Below are positions 4,283-53,106 of a DNA stretch of 64,000 nucleotides, one piece after another (positions within the stretch are counted from its first letter, which is position 1; each line of letters opens with the position of its first letter). The notes beneath the pieces are model-generated. The model worked only from the letters and a program-made list of their open reading frames with translations, made no database searches and was not told the DNA's origin. Source of the DNA: Prevotella sp. (GTDB taxonomy: Bacteria > Bacteroidota > Bacteroidia > Bacteroidales > Bacteroidaceae); assembly GCA_016291005.1 (NCBI GenBank), contig JAEEVT010000002.1, positions 6-64,005 of the forward strand, given 5' to 3'. Both the position numbers and the translations under genes were made by a program.

Positions 4283-4392
4283 CATGTTAGGTTCGATGGT
4301 AGGTTGGATGGTAGGTCTCCGAAAACAAACCTACCATCGACAAGCCCTTTGTCTATCGGGGTTTCAGGCTGCGATGGTAGGTTGTTAGGTTA
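4283..4392 (-). repeat. AACCTACCAT repeat element, copy R1
   Basis: About 110 bp with direct and inverted AACCTA(C/A)CAT motifs; colinear with the copies at 43558, 51033 and 52967. Confidence 0.9.
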
Positions 4393-4397
4393 CTTTA

Positions 4398-6683
4398 TCA
4401 GTCCTTCAACTTCAGCGAGATGGCGAAGCCGCCGCCGGGAGCCTCCTTGAGTTTAAGGGTTTGGCCAGCCTTCACCACCTTCTTGGTGATGGTGTAAGCC
4501 TGCGGGTTGGTGTCGTAGTGGGCGTCCTTCGCATCGGCATAGATGGTGCAGTCGTACTTACGGCCCTTGTCGAGGAAGTCGAGCTTGATGACTGCTTCGT
4601 GGCCGTTCTCGTCGCACTTGCCGCCAATGAACCAGTTGTTGGTGCCCTTGGCCTTACGGGCTACGGTGATGTAGTCGGCAGGCTCAGCTTCGAGGTAGAT
4701 GCTCTCGTCCCAGTCGCAGGCCACGTCGCGGATGAACTGGAAGGCATCGTCGAACTTCTCGTAGTTCTCGGGCAGGTCAGCAGCCATCTGAAGGGGTGAA
4801 TACATGGTGAGGTAGAGGGCTAACGAACCTGCTATGGTGATGCGAGCCCACGACGGGTTGTCGCTCCACTCCTTCAGCTTGGTGACGAAGATGCCAGGCG
4901 TGTAGTCCATCGGACCGCCTTGTAAGCGTGTGAACGGCAGGATGCAGGTGTGGTCGGGACGTGAACCGCCGAAGGCCTCATACTCCGTACCGCGTGCACT
5001 CTCGTTGCCGACGAGGTTTGGCCAGGTGCGGCAGAGACCGGTGGGCCTCGTGGCCTCATGGGCATTGACCATGATGTGGTGCTTGGCAGCCTCTTTGACC
5101 ACATAGAGGTAGTGGTTGTTCATGGACTGCGAATAGTGGTGGTCGCCACGAGGGATGATGTCGCCTACATAACCTGTCTTCACGGCGTCATAGCCGTATT
5201 TGTTCATCAGCTGGAAGGCTTTCTCTAAATGGCGCTCGTAGTTCTGCGTGCTCGATGAAGTCTCGTGGTGCATCAGCAGCTTGACGCCCTTCGAGTGGGC
5301 ATAGTCGTTGAGCATCTTGATGTCGAAGTCGGGATAGGGTGTCTGGAAATCGAAGACGTCGCGTTTCCACATGTTGGCCCAGTCTTCCCAGCCGACGTTC
5401 CAGCCCTCGACGAGCACCTGGTCAAGGCCGTTCTTGGCGGCGAAGTCGATGTATCGCTTCACGTTCTCGTTGTTGGCCTTGTGCGTGCCGTTTGGCTTCA
5501 CCTTGCTCCAGTCAATCTGGTCAAGCTTGATGCTGGGGTAGTCGTTGGTGTAGTGCCATGAGCCTCGGCCGACAATCATCTCCCACCATACGCCACAGTA
5601 CTTCGTGGGATGAATCCACGACGTGTCCTCTATCTTACACGGCTCGTTGAGGTTGAGAATGAGGTTGCTTGACAGCATGTCGCGAGCGTCGTCGCTCACC
5701 ATAACGGTGCGCCAAGGCGTTTCGCAGGGCGTCTGCATGGCACCCTTCAGACCTGTGGCGTCAGGTGTCAGATGGCTGACGAAGGTGAAAGGCCGCGGCA
5801 GAGGGTAGGCAGACGGTCCTGGGTTGGGGGTATAGGTATTGCTGTTGCCTTCCAACTTGGTGGAGAGAGCCTTTGTCTCAGCATCGACTAACTCCAAGTG
5901 CATGGTGGCATAGTCAGTACATGCTGCCTCGTGGATATTGATATAAAGGCCGTCAGCGCTTTTCATCTGGAGTGATGTCTGCACACCCGTTGGTGAGAAG
6001 ACGGCAACAGACGAATTGCCCCAGTTGACAGCCTCGCGGAAGCGGCCGCGAATCTCAGAGAGTTTGCATTCCTGCGTCTCCTGCTCCTGGGTGTCATAGT
6101 CGCCAGGCAGCCACCAGGCGGTGTGGTCGCCAGCCATCGAGAATTCCGAGCGCTCGTCTTTGATCAGGAAATAGTTCAGGTCGGGCTGCTGGGGGAACTC
6201 ATAGCGGAAGCCGATGCCGTCATCATAGACGCGGAAGCGGATGAGGATGGTACGACGGTGGCGGCGCGGCTGCAGGCGCTTGCCAGGCTGGTCTGTAGCA
6301 GGGGGAGCCGTCTGCCATTGTTGCGAGAGCGTGGCAACATACTCGTTGTAATGGTTGCGGATGTCACGCGTCTCACCCCAGACGGGTTGCCACGTCTCGT
6401 CGAAGGATGAGGTCTCTTCCTTATCCAGTAAGAAACCATCCATGAGATCGCGCTCATTGAGTCCTAACGAGGCGTGCTTATCCTTGGCCAGTTCCAATCC
6501 GAGGTGTGACGGACGCACCACCTCCTTACCTTTATATAATAAGGAATAGGTGGGTCTGCCCTCCTCGACGGTGAAGTTTAATACGATGTTGCCATTGGGC
6601 GACTTAACTTCCGTAGCCATTGCCGTCAGCGGCAACAGCAATAATGCTAGTAATATGTTTCTGTGTTTCATAAGTCGTATCAT
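4398..6683 (-). CDS. susB: Glycoside hydrolase family 97 alpha-glucosidase (SusB-like)
   Basis: Motifs [46 protein letters not shown]; signal peptide; start overlaps the malQ stop (ATGA). Confidence 0.92.
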
Positions 6684-51642: not shown

Positions 51643-52923
51643 ATGATAACATTAGCAGACATTTACCTGTGGGGACAACATGCAGGAACAGTGGCATGGG
51701 ACGAGAACTATCAGGCAGCCAGTTTCGAATTCACCCCTGAATTTGCCTCTGGTCATTGGGATGTCGCTCCATTGATGATGCCCGTCAGACAGCGGCAGAT
51801 ATACCAGTTCCCATCGCTCAACAAGGATACGTTTATTGGATTGCCTGGTCTATTGGCCGATGCTCTGCCAGATGCCTTTGGTAAAGCCCTGTTGGACAAG
51901 TGGCTGGCCAGTATGGGACGAACTTTTGCCAATCCGGTAGAGCGGCTGTGCTATCAGGGGAAGCGTAGTATGGGTGCCTTGGAGTTCGTGCCTGCACAAG
52001 ACAACTATCTGGAGCAAGGGACAAAGTTGGAGATAGACTCACTTGTGGAAGTGGCCCGAGAGGTGCTAGACGAAAAGAAAAAGCTGGATGTCAATGTCAA
52101 TGAAGACACCAAGGAAGCCATTGCCAATATCATCAGGGTCGGAACATCGGCAGGCGGTCAGCGGGCAAAGGCCGTTATTGCCTACAACGAGAATACTGGC
52201 GAGGTGCGTAGCGGTCAGATAGATGTACCTGACGGATTCAGCCATTGGCTGCTCAAACTGGATGGTGTGACCAATGCGGAACTTGGCGACCCCAAGCATT
52301 ATGGACAAATAGAATACGTCTATTACCTGATGGCTCGTGCAGCAGGTATCAACATGACAGAGTGCAGACTTCTGGAAGAGAATGGACGTGCGCACTTTAT
52401 GACGCAACGATTTGACCGTCTCAACGGAAACGAGAAAGTACACATGCAGACGCTTTGCGGCATAGCACACTACGACTACAAGATGTTGCATGCCTACAGT
52501 TATGAGCAGGCTTTCCAGGTTATGAGACGACTTCGCCTGCCCTACAGTCAGGCAGAAGAGATGTTCAGACGCATGGTGTTCAACGTGATTGCCCGCAATC
52601 AGGATGACCACACGAAGAACATCTCTTTCTTGATGGACAAGAGCGGCCGATGGTCATTGTCACCAGCATACGATATGTCATGGTCGTACAACCCCAAAGG
52701 TGCCTGGACTGCTAAACACCAGATGTCTATAAACGGAAAGTGGGATGATATCACCCGTGCCGACTTCTTGACTCTGGCCAAAAACGTGAATATCAAACAG
52801 GCTGATGCCATTATCGAACAAGTGAAGGACGGGGTCAGCAAATGGAGAACATTTGCCACACAGTATAGTATTCCTTACGAGATGGTAAAGGCCATCGACT
52901 CAACTTTGTTATTAGGATTATAA
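51643..52923 (+). CDS. hipA: HipA-family serine/threonine kinase toxin
   Basis: LPDAFG, GTSAGGQRAK, QRFDR, NQDDHTKN, LSPAYD. Confidence 0.92.
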   Translation: MITLADIYLWGQHAGTVAWDENYQAASFEFTPEFASGHWDVAPLMMPVRQRQIYQFPSLNKDTFIGLPGLLADALPDAFGKALLDKWLASMGRTFANPVERLCYQGKRSMGALEFVPAQDNYLEQGTKLEIDSLVEVAREVLDEKKKLDVNVNEDTKEAIANIIRVGTSAGGQRAKAVIAYNENTGEVRSGQIDVPDGFSHWLLKLDGVTNAELGDPKHYGQIEYVYYLMARAAGINMTECRLLEENGRAHFMTQRFDRLNGNEKVHMQTLCGIAHYDYKMLHAYSYEQAFQVMRRLRLPYSQAEEMFRRMVFNVIARNQDDHTKNISFLMDKSGRWSLSPAYDMSWSYNPKGAWTAKHQMSINGKWDDITRADFLTLAKNVNIKQADAIIEQVKDGVSKWRTFATQYSIPYEMVKAIDSTLLLGL

Positions 52924-52966
52924 GTACGGCCAATGGGAATCCATGGGGAATTCTGATTGATGGCTA

Positions 52967-53106
52967 ATGGTAGGGTAAAAGACAAAAATGGTAGGTTGGA
53001 TGGTAGGTTCAGAAAGGATAACCTACCATGCTCAAAACTAGTGTACATCGGGGTTTAAGGGGTGTTATGGTAGGTTGTTAGGTTGGTTTTGAAATTGCCG
53101 TATTTT
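52967..53106 (-). repeat. AACCTACCAT repeat element, copy R4 (more diverged)
   Basis: ATGGTAGGTT at 52988, 53000 and 53067, inverted at 53020; shares the outer flank with R2 and R3. Confidence 0.85.

What the first reader, a model, noticed from the sequence alone, without database searches (positions are those of the whole stretch)
4283..53106. A ~110-bp AACCTACCAT element marks four core/accessory boundaries: candidate cassette or transposon-end system
Seen: four colinear copies (4283-4392 minus, 43558-43666 plus, 51033-51141 plus, 52967-53106 minus). The shared layout is AACCTAAC-AACCTACCAT, a ~37-bp spacer with an imperfect palindrome, an inverted ATGGTAGGTT, ~10 bp, then 2-3 more direct motifs. 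R2-R4 also share an outer AAATA...GG..ATTT flank. R1 and R2 each follow a carbohydrate gene stop and precede a TPR-HTH regulator in the same relative orientation. R2/R3 are direct repeats around a 7.4-kb cassette, R3/R4 are inverted around hipBA, and R2/R4 bracket the whole island. No recombinase or transposase is encoded in the window. Established: arrays of protein-binding boxes typify att arms, transposon ends and origins. Inference: sites acted on in trans that capture, excise or invert gene cassettes.
Basis: partly seen in the sequence, partly recalled or inferred. Interest (0 to 1): 0.85.

Follow-up and report, generated by a model that had tools for sequence, protein, structure and literature searches.

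The report
Repeat arms of VapE-linked mobile-like elements
The four repeats are real copies of a species-restricted family of non-coding "arms" built from phased ACCTACCAT boxes. In related rumen Prevotella the same arms bracket a VapE-type helicase gene, and in this species they sit where strains differ by rearrangements and by gain or loss of a hipBA toxin-antitoxin module.

Summary
The window holds four colinear copies, three "L-type" (R1-R3) and one "R-type" (R4). They belong to about 23 copies in this 82%-complete rumen Prevotella assembly.

Distribution is narrow:
- BLAST found no copy in 30 relatives.
- The double-box pattern was in 0 of 400 other species of the family.
- Copies do occur in two other rumen Prevotellaceae assemblies (about 110 double-box hits in one) and in rumen metagenome contigs.

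Layout: a small outer hairpin, two boxes, a spacer of about 37 bp, one inverted box, then three boxes at 11-12 bp phase. L and R arms form convergent pairs.

Conspecific strains carry the same L/R pair upstream of tig either empty or holding hipBA. This genome also has a hybrid L copy (R3) at a rearrangement breakpoint. Breakpoints are not at one fixed nucleotide, and hipBA occurs elsewhere without these arms. A dedicated cassette-recombination system is therefore not supported.

New lead: four of five examined ~400-aa VapE-like genes are bracketed on both sides by arms of this architecture. The fifth contig shows only the downstream arm. The box sequence differs by lineage. One is the only VapE-like gene in the genome with the most copies.

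Best reading (0.52): orphan MITE-like arms whose boxes bind a VapE-type protein. The mobility mechanism is not shown.

The parts
4275..4397 (-). R1: L-type arm without the outer hairpin module. It starts 8 nt after the GH97 stop codon and is followed by a hairpin plus T6 tract (about 4236-4270), then the TPR497 gene.
   Evidence: Conserved in place, with both flanks, in conspecific strains L215/L216. Absent downstream of GH97 in two other species.
43530..43674 (+). R2: L-type arm with its outer module. It lies 53 bp after the MFS (fucP-like) stop codon and 28 bp before the TPR561 start.
   Evidence: TPR561 and the DUF3244 gene have paralogues after another L copy on contig C158.
51005..51171 (+). 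R3: L-type arm (outer hairpin, body 51026-51149, 3' extension with a terminator-like hairpin at 51147-51167 plus a T run). It is a hybrid copy: the body carries one set of variant bases, while the extension and downstream DNA match the AlaDH-linked L copy of other strains.
51172..52934 (+). hipBA module (hipB 51268-51639, hipA 51643-52923): cargo lying between the L and R arms.
   Evidence: Pfam. Absent from the same L/R pair in strains L204/L205 and present in L203. 90% nucleotide identity at unrelated loci lacking the arms in other species.
52962..53120 (-). R4: R-type arm (body 52962-53090, outer hairpin module to about 53120), convergent with R3.
   Evidence: Shares 94% identity over 254 bp with the R-type copy on contig C185.
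53155..53281 (.). 22-bp tandem repeats on the outer side of R4, between it and the tig promoter. The same kind of array follows four of the five R-type copies.
   Evidence: contig coordinates minus 5

Best explanation
The four copies are three L-type arms and one R-type arm of a lineage-restricted, non-coding, MITE-like repeat family. Each arm is a fixed arrangement of 9-10-bp boxes: two direct, a spacer of about 37 bp, one inverted, then three direct at one box per helical turn. An L arm and an R arm are long inverted repeats of each other.

In related rumen Prevotella the same arms bracket a single ~400-aa VapE-like gene. That protein has a P-loop NTPase domain of the kind found in primase-helicase and initiator proteins, plus a C-terminal DUF3874. 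Homologous genes in other lineages carry arms of the same architecture but with their own box sequence. I therefore infer that the boxes are binding sites (iteron-like) for that protein. The arm-VapE-arm unit would be the autonomous form, and gene-less L/R pairs and solo arms would be its derivatives.

In this genome no cognate VapE-like gene was found, so the copies appear to be orphans. What they demonstrably do here is mark sites where DNA is exchanged:
- hipBA lies between an L/R pair that is empty in sister strains.
- An L copy (R3) is a hybrid at a rearrangement breakpoint.
- One pair has collapsed to a single palindrome.
- An IS has inserted into one arm.

Shown: the family, its anatomy, its distribution, the strain differences and the VapE bracketing. 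Inferred: protein binding, mobility and its mechanism.
For: Family and anatomy:
- About 23 copies in the assembly.
- 18 box clusters with the pattern +-++ or its mirror.

Restricted distribution:
- None in 30 relatives by BLAST.
- 0 of 400 other species of the family with the double-box pattern.
- True copies in RUG062, RUI529 and rumen metagenome contigs.
- 110 double-box hits in RUI529, many in convergent pairs about 210-320 bp apart.

VapE link:
- The only PF05272 gene in RUI529 is bracketed by L and R arms. These are 80% identical inverted repeats and 80-88% identical to gene-less copies. The gene's stop codon abuts box 3.
- A 56%-identical gene is bracketed the same way in a different context on contig L086.
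- Two further homologues (65% and 51% identical) are bracketed by the same architecture, with boxes GAGGTAACAAA and CTCTTCACC. A third (48%, boxes ATCTTCACC) has a clear arm downstream. Its contig starts 345 bp upstream, where no matching arm was seen.
- In this genome a 395-aa VapE-like gene on C169 has its own boxes on both sides.

Geometry is conserved with an unrelated spacer: a second family in this genome (ACCTACAT boxes) has the same order and the same spacing of about 54 bp between the inverted boxes.

Recombination and insertion at the arms.
Against: - No VapE-like gene in this assembly is closer than 40% identity to the bracketed ones, and none is flanked by ACCTACCAT arms. The assembly is 82% complete.
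- No target-site duplication was recognised.
- No presence/absence difference of a whole arm or pair was found between strains.
- VapE-like proteins are not known transposases. Arms next to such a gene could simply be its own operator or origin.
- Only five bracketed genes were examined, one of them visible on one side only.
- Nine of the 23 copies lie 1-58 bp after a same-strand stop codon. That pattern also fits selection for a 3'-end function or targeted insertion behind terminators.
- For five copies the homology extends 70-85 bp into the upstream T9SS C-terminal-domain coding sequence. Some spread may therefore be by segmental duplication or gene conversion rather than transposition.
Confidence: 0.52

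Rival explanations
1. REP/REPIN-like elements mobilised by an HUH-Y1 (RAYT-like) enzyme. The box hairpin would be recognised as folded single-stranded DNA and copied by one of the genome's HUH-Y1/DprA-like fusion proteins. This could also work together with the VapE-like helicase as a split Rep.
For: - The assembly encodes about 7 paralogues of a 375-aa protein with invariant HUH (MPDHxH) and Y..NP.R motifs.
- The model's N-terminal domain matches IS200/IS608/ISDra2 TnpA and the E. coli RAYT 4er8. Its C-terminal domain matches DprA.
- The C30 paralogue has an ACCTACAT-family pair 100 bp downstream. The C191 and C132 paralogues have other box palindromes plus 22-bp arrays upstream.
- On C30 and C132 the HUH gene, the box element and a long VapE-like gene lie in a row.
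- In RUG062 one paralogue lies about 0.9 kb from an ACCTACCAT-like pair.
- The box contains GTAG/CTAC. From my own knowledge, not tested here, this is the conserved head of many REPs.
Against: - No HUH paralogue shares a contig with an ACCTACCAT copy in this genome.
- RUI529, which has the most copies, has one HUH paralogue with no ACCTACCAT box within 1.5 kb.
- About half of the genus carries such genes without having this repeat family.
- The RUG062 proximity is within chance by my rough estimate.
- The elements are far longer and more modular than classical REPs.
Confidence: 0.16
2. Sites of a site-specific recombination (cassette or att-type) system. A recombinase acting in trans would cross over at the inner end of L and R, so inserting, excising or inverting gene cassettes.
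For: - Phased direct boxes next to an inverted one resemble arm-type or attI-type binding arrays.
- Direct L copies flank gene sets (R2...R3 in the window; two L copies 5.8 kb apart on C106).
- hipBA is present or absent exactly between L and R.
- Three strain comparisons break at the 3' end of L.
- The hybrid R3 crossed over in the last 25-35 bp, although a longer identical stretch lies further 5'.
Against: - Junctions fall at different positions: directly after box 3 on C19, about 45 bp further in on C48/L154, and within box 3 to the extension in R3.
- The three tyrosine recombinase genes are on other contigs, and no serine recombinase was found.
- hipBA moves without these arms in other species.
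- The empty pair lacks part of the L extension. Its junction shows 7-of-8-base microhomology (ATAGGGA / ATGGGGA), which fits a deletion.
- The collapsed C10 copy fits recombination between repeated boxes.
Confidence: 0.1
3. Purely cis-acting 3'-end or regulatory elements with no current mobility. These would be terminator or mRNA-stabilising hairpins, or a binding array for a chromosomal regulator, spread by duplication of T9SS and TPR-DUF3244 gene cassettes.
For: - Nine of 23 copies (six of ten L-type) begin 1-58 bp after a same-strand stop codon.
- The box hairpin is followed by T-rich sequence. R1 and R3 are followed by a hairpin plus T6, so the arm would be transcribed in the 3' UTR.
- Homology extends into the upstream coding 3' ends.
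- Three L copies precede paralogous TPR-DUF3244 cassettes.
Against: - Absent from orthologous sites in other species.
- No Rfam match, even at E-value up to 1.
- The only consistently paired columns are the invariant boxes, and the spacer shows no in-register covariation.
- Hairpin stability does not favour one strand consistently.
- The high copy number of uniform L/R units in RUI529 and the VapE bracketing are not explained.
Confidence: 0.1

Closest known systems
BrickBuilt and other MITEs of Porphyromonas gingivalis (Klein et al. 2015, PMC4596501)
   Same: A Bacteroidales-specific, species-restricted, intergenic and modular repeat family with tens of copies. It is often found next to T9SS (PorSS) C-terminal-domain genes and combines inverted-repeat end modules with 22-23-nt tandem 'bricks'. 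Here, four of five R-type copies are followed by 22-bp arrays. A sister family in the same genome (ACCTACAT boxes) has nine pairs enclosing about 300 bp that, in the pairs read, holds 22-bp repeats.
   Different: BrickBuilt has short 12-bp IS5-like terminal repeats (GAGACCTTTGCA) and an IS5-family transposase is presumed to move it. These arms are 115-170 bp long, built from phased boxes around an internal hairpin. Their only gene-bearing relatives encode a VapE-like NTPase. In the ACCTACCAT family the bricks lie outside the pair, not inside it.
REP / BIME / REPIN elements with RAYT transposases (E. coli, Pseudomonas)
   Same: Dispersed extragenic palindromic repeats lying just after stop codons. 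They occur as inverted doublets, are lineage-specific, and act as hot spots for IS insertion and rearrangement. HUH-Y1 genes are present in the genome.
   Different: These arms are much longer and carry phased direct boxes. No HUH gene is flanked by this family. Copy number is tens rather than hundreds.
Replication origins bound by initiators: iterons next to rep/pri-rep genes of plasmids and phage satellites; three 11-bp direct repeats plus a hairpin in the pMV158 origin; Rep-binding repeats in parvovirus terminal hairpins (recalled from my own knowledge, not tested here)
   Same: Short direct repeats at one per helical turn lie beside a hairpin, directly adjacent to the gene of a P-loop initiator or helicase. 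The repeat sequence changes together with the protein.
   Different: Here the arrays flank the gene on both sides as long inverted repeats. They also exist as dozens of gene-less copies scattered in the chromosome. No replication, nicking or excision has been shown.
Integron attC/attI sites and att arms of tyrosine recombinases
   Same: A site directly after the stop codon of a gene, in the gene's orientation. It combines direct and inverted binding boxes. Direct copies flank gene sets.
   Different: There is no integrase and no array at one locus. The box sequence is nearly invariant instead of being conserved only in structure. The junction positions vary.

Membership tests
[quoted passage not shown] | Small, non-coding, multi-copy and dispersed | tested here: met
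   About 23 arms of 115-170 bp on 16 contigs, all intergenic. About 110 double-box hits in RUI529.
[quoted passage not shown] | Terminal inverted repeats | tested here: met
   L and R arms of a pair are inverted repeats. The arms around the VapE-like gene are 80% identical over 112 bp. Solo L arms have no inverted partner.
[quoted passage not shown] | Target-site duplication and empty sites in relatives | tested here: inconclusive
   No duplication was recognised at the flanks read. No strain was found that lacks a whole arm or pair at an otherwise conserved site. Other species lack the elements, but their neighbouring genes differ too.
[quoted passage not shown] | An autonomous relative with the same ends that encodes a transposase | tested here: not met
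   Gene-bearing relatives share the ends but encode a VapE-like NTPase (PF05272, DUF5906, DUF3874), not a known transposase. The DDE and rve genes of the assembly lie elsewhere and the one IS read has an unrelated terminal repeat.
REP/REPIN with RAYT | A single-copy HUH-Y1 gene flanked by its cognate repeats | tested here: not met
   About 7 HUH-Y1 paralogues, none on a contig with an ACCTACCAT copy. RUI529's single paralogue has no box within 1.5 kb. One paralogue adjoins a pair of the sister ACCTACAT family.
Integron cassette / att site of a site-specific recombinase | A linked recombinase gene and a fixed crossover point | tested here: not met
   No integrase or resolvase on the contig. Junctions lie at three different positions.
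BrickBuilt-type MITE | An array of 22-23-nt tandem repeats between leader and tail modules that end in IS5-like 12-bp inverted repeats | tested here: inconclusive
   22-bp arrays adjoin four of five R-type copies, but on the outer side. No GAGACCTTTGCA-type end was found. The sister ACCTACAT family has the repeats between its two arms in the pairs read.
Known structured RNA (Rfam 15) | A match to a covariance model, or covariation supporting a fold | tested here: not met
   No match at the gathering threshold in the window, nor at E-value up to 1 across R3-R4. RNAalifold keeps only the invariant box stem plus three weak pairs.
HipBA type II toxin-antitoxin (the cargo) | An HTH antitoxin gene followed by a HipA kinase gene | tested here: met
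   HTH_3 for hipB; Couple_hipA and HipA_C for hipA.

The most novel reading that the evidence does not exclude
The arm-VapE-arm units are a so far undescribed kind of mobile or self-replicating element of Bacteroidales. A VapE-type (SF3-helicase-like) initiator would recognise its own phased boxes in two long hairpin-forming terminal arms. It might cooperate with the HUH-Y1/DprA-like proteins encoded beside long VapE-like genes, forming a split Rep analogous to parvovirus or CRESS Rep. The unit would seed dozens of gene-less arm pairs that then reshape the chromosome and trap cargo such as hipBA.
Probability: 0.28. Interest if true: 0.85.

Novelty: new variant of a known kind. Interest (0 to 1): 0.6.

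Why it matters
Prevotella dominates the rumen and many guts. Its genomes are highly rearranged, and the repeats that drive this are largely uncatalogued.

This family gives a concrete and testable case:
- a defined DNA architecture;
- a candidate cognate protein whose specificity appears to co-vary with the boxes;
- strain-level examples of what the arms do (hipBA gain or loss, a hybrid arm at a breakpoint, an IS insertion).

If the VapE-like protein really binds and propagates the arms, that would assign a function to a very common but unexplained Bacteroidales gene family (VapE/BT4734/DUF3874). It might also define a new type of mobile element.

On the practical side, the arms break short-read assemblies. 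Contigs end in them, so they matter for MAG quality and for reading 'islands' correctly.

Tried and rejected
- **Known RNA family:** no Rfam match. There was no in-register covariation in the spacer, and folding energies do not favour one strand consistently.
- **fucP-tig 'island' test:** none of the window's genes upstream of tig lie next to tig in 14 other species. Their common neighbour is an ABC-ATPase gene whose copy in this genome sits on contig C158. An island defined as 'fucP to tig' therefore cannot be tested across species.
- **Exact-protein look-ups** for tig, fucP and the 2-hydroxyacid dehydrogenase next to the C117 pair returned only the same strain.
- **Empty-site test for the C117 pair** in four other species failed, because the two flanking genes are not adjacent there.
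- **Search for a partner transposase:** no multi-copy IS is assembled. The IS4-like element on C185 has unrelated ends and has simply inserted into an arm.
- **hipBA as a cassette dependent on the arms:** rejected, because the module is 90% identical at arm-less loci in other species.
- **Literature:** a search for the box sequence returned only unrelated papers, mostly eukaryotic or clinical studies. A search for DUF3874/BT4734/VapE with Bacteroidales listed no relevant paper among those shown.
- **PDB sequence search** with the HUH protein gave nothing; only the fold search did.
- **First attempt at an NCBIfam scan** failed on a coordinate slip and was repeated.
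Full report
**1. The observation**

The four copies are present at the stated places and align colinearly. The 10-mer AACCTACCAT with up to one mismatch occurs 23 times in the window against 3.3 expected, and no shuffle out of 100 reached this. 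Twenty of these matches lie inside the four copies.

The window is contig C18 of a 3.09-Mb assembly in 200 contigs, 82% complete. A profile built from the four copies finds about 23 copies on 16 contigs. The element is therefore a genome-wide repeat family rather than a feature of this island.

**2. Anatomy**

Aligning all copies gives the following order:
- a small outer hairpin with an AAATA-type loop and a stem that differs between copies, followed by ATTTC(G/A)A...; R1 lacks this module;
- ACCTAAC-A-ACCTACCAT;
- a spacer of about 37 nt;
- the inverted box ATGGTAGGT;
- about 10 nt;
- three direct boxes at 12-bp phase;
- one of several 25-45-bp extensions.

Three subtypes exist. L-type includes R1, R2 and R3. 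R-type includes R4 and has a TTTTGTCTT insert before its third box. B-type has a different spacer.

All five R-type copies face a convergent partner arm. The partner is 60-130 bp away on contigs C48, C170, C185 and C117. In the window it is 1.9 kb away, with hipBA between the arms.

One copy on C10 is a single perfect palindrome with an L outer half and an R outer half. This is what a pair would become after recombination between its repeated boxes.

Nine of the 23 copies, including six of the ten L-type, start 1-58 bp after the stop codon of a gene on the same strand. R1 and R3 are followed by a hairpin plus a T run.

**3. Is it an RNA?**

There is no Rfam match. In an alignment of 38 distinct copies from several genomes, the only consistently paired columns are the invariant boxes. 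The spacer keeps a sequence motif (GAAA..CC......A.AGGG.TT) rather than in-register compensatory pairs. Single-copy folds do not favour one strand consistently.

A second family in the same genome has ACCTACAT boxes at 10-bp phase. It keeps the same order (two boxes, about 38 nt, one inverted box, three boxes) and the same spacing of about 54 bp, but with an unrelated AT-rich spacer. Conserved geometry with a replaceable spacer points to a protein-binding DNA array.

**4. Distribution**

- BLAST finds no copy in 30 relatives (18 species of the same genus and 12 of the same order).
- The double-box pattern is absent from 400 other species of the family.
- True copies occur in two other rumen Prevotellaceae assemblies, RUG062 and RUI529, and in rumen metagenome contigs. 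There the boxes are GACCTACCAT at 11-bp phase.
- RUI529 has 110 double-box hits, many in convergent pairs about 210-320 bp apart. Such near-uniform, high-copy pairs resemble a MITE family.

**5. Behaviour between strains**

Homologues of tig gave conspecific contigs at 98-99% protein identity.
- In strains L204 and L205 the order is ABC-ATPase, AlaDH (reverse strand), L, R, 22-bp repeats, tig. The two arms are 18 bp apart.
- In strain L203 the same pair holds hipBA.
- In this genome the AlaDH-linked L copy is on contig C158 and is followed by a TPR-DUF3244 cassette. On C18 the order is hyp508, R3, hipBA, R4, tig.

R3 carries the variant bases of a different L copy through its second box. From the third box onward it matches the AlaDH-linked copy. 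R3 is therefore a hybrid, with the exchange inside the last 25-35 bp. The same junction is found in several independent assemblies.

Two further comparisons also break near the inner end of L.
- L154 and C48 (94% identity) share the upstream gene, L and 45 bp of extension, then diverge.
- L179 and C19 (95% identity) diverge directly after box 3.

By contrast, R1 keeps the same genes on both sides in strains L215 and L216. Across species GH97 and tig are conserved, but the arms and the adjacent TPR/DUF3244 genes are not.

The arms are thus frequent breakpoints, though not always, and the break is not at one nucleotide.

**6. hipBA**

The module at window 51172-52934 is 90% identical at the nucleotide level in other Prevotella. 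There it sits at unrelated loci with no ACCTACCAT box.

The empty pair lacks part of the L extension. Its junction shows the microhomology ATAGGGA / ATGGGGA. Loss by deletion is therefore as likely as insertion.

In one other species hipBA sits 55 bp from a different box pair with GTCGCACCA boxes at 12-bp phase. This may indicate that such pairs are favoured landing sites.

**7. Enzymes**

No integrase, resolvase, DDE transposase, rve, HUH or VapE-like gene lies on the window's contig.

The assembly does encode about 7 paralogues of a 375-aa protein with invariant HUH and Y..NP.R motifs. The model's N-terminal domain matches IS200/IS608 TnpA and the RAYT structure 4er8. Its C-terminal domain matches DprA.

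Some paralogues adjoin other box elements and 22-bp arrays. None adjoins an ACCTACCAT copy.

**8. The VapE link**

- On metagenome contig L086, an L/R pair encloses a 404-aa VapE-like gene.
- In RUI529 the only pair found with a long gap encloses a 403-aa VapE-like gene that is 56% identical to it, in a different context. Its stop codon abuts box 3 of L, and about 250 bp separate its start from R.
- That gene is the only PF05272 match in the RUI529 genome.
- Its arms are 80% identical inverted repeats of each other and 80-88% identical to gene-less copies in the same genome.

I then looked up the three nearest full-length homologues from an exhaustive protein search.
- The 65% and 51% homologues are bracketed by the same architecture, with boxes GAGGTAACAAA and CTCTTCACC.
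- The arms of the 51% homologue even keep the spacer motif.
- The 48% homologue (boxes ATCTTCACC) shows a clear arm downstream. Its contig begins 345 bp upstream of the gene, where no matching arm was seen.

In this genome a 395-aa VapE-like gene on C169 has its own boxes on both sides. Other VapE-like genes carry box palindromes or palindromic 22-bp arrays in their flanks. No gene here is closer than 40% identity to the bracketed subfamily, and none has ACCTACCAT arms.

**9. Reading**

The simplest account of all this is as follows. The arms are the ends of a small element whose one gene encodes a VapE-type NTPase. The boxes are its binding sites. Gene-less pairs and solo arms are derivatives, and the copies in this window are orphans. 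They act as recombination and insertion hot spots, and incidentally supply hairpins behind genes.

Binding, mobility and mechanism are all inferred. A REP/RAYT-type mechanism using the HUH-DprA proteins, alone or with the helicase, is the main rival. A dedicated cassette-recombination system and a purely regulatory role are less likely.

**10. Comparison and novelty**

The closest described relatives are the P. gingivalis MITEs, especially BrickBuilt (PMC4596501). BrickBuilt shares the host order, the modular build, the 22-23-nt bricks and the neighbourhood of T9SS cargo genes. It differs in having short IS5-like ends.

I found no description of VapE-like genes bracketed by phased-box arms in the library searched.

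I rate this a new variant of a known kind (MITE/REP-like repeats). There is a substantial chance that the gene-bearing form is something new.

Noticed in passing
G000 contigs C13, C30, C34, C61, C95, C150, C173, C179, C183, C197 (e.g. C30:5730-6206): A sister repeat family with ACCTACAT boxes at 10-bp phase and the same box order. It forms 18 arms, 16 of them in eight convergent pairs on one contig, each enclosing about 300-400 bp. In the copies read this interval holds 22-bp tandem repeats, a BrickBuilt-like layout. One end carries an extra conserved module of about 55 bp.
   Followed up: partly
G000 C191:20975-22099 (protein P0361) and paralogues on C30, C126, C180, C132, C139, C59: About 7 paralogues of a 375-aa fusion of an HUH-Y1 (IS200/RAYT-like) domain with a DprA-like domain. 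P0361 carries a QQTGRAA repeat in a low-confidence linker. About half of the species sampled in the genus have such genes, with 0-11 matches each.
   Followed up: partly
window 53155-53281 and genome-wide: The assembly holds about 300 tandem-repeat arrays with period 21-23 or 43-45 bp (147 of period 22), with cores such as GCCGTGATTTCC and TTATCCAGTACTTTTCC. In the loci read they lie upstream of gene starts (tig, an HUH gene). On C132 one array is itself palindromic, with five direct and then five inverted units.
   Followed up: partly
loci L206:3112-3131 / 4992-5011 and L214:3481-3494 / 5280-5293: In other species the mobile hipBA module is flanked by 14-20-bp direct repeats. These are half of a local hairpin, as if the module had inserted into a terminator-like hairpin and duplicated one arm.
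   Followed up: no
L207:3181-3476 (also in L206): A different box-pair element with an outer 26-bp inverted repeat, three GTCGCACCA boxes at 12-bp phase on each side and two 21-bp repeats in the middle. It lies 55 bp upstream of hipBA in another Prevotella species.
   Followed up: no
G000 C198:21858-21984 = C185:30696-30822; IS at about C185:30697-31990: A 1.3-kb IS encoding a DDE_Tnp_1 transposase, with terminal repeat ACTAGTGTCCACTAAA. A copy has inserted into the inner boxes of the partner arm of the C198 element, and the contig ends there.
   Followed up: partly
L215:10001-11875 versus window 49524-50246 and 1-1049: In a conspecific strain, the gene after the TPR gene is a chimera. It combines the 5' part of the window's hyp508 gene (96.5% nucleotide identity) with the 3' part of the LRR/DUF3244 gene at the window's start. 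This indicates recombination among T9SS/DUF3244 surface-protein genes.
   Followed up: no
G000 C30:3541-7388 and C132:2954-5765: A long (about 700-aa) VapE-like gene, a box element and/or 22-bp arrays, and an HUH-DprA gene lie in a row at two loci. An HU-HIG gene lies next to the HUH gene on C191 and next to the R arm on L086.
   Followed up: partly
L215:1280-1878 versus window 10544-10599: A conspecific strain carries a 144-aa PDDEXK_3 gene between LacI and the MFS gene of the starch cluster. It is missing from this genome.
   Followed up: no
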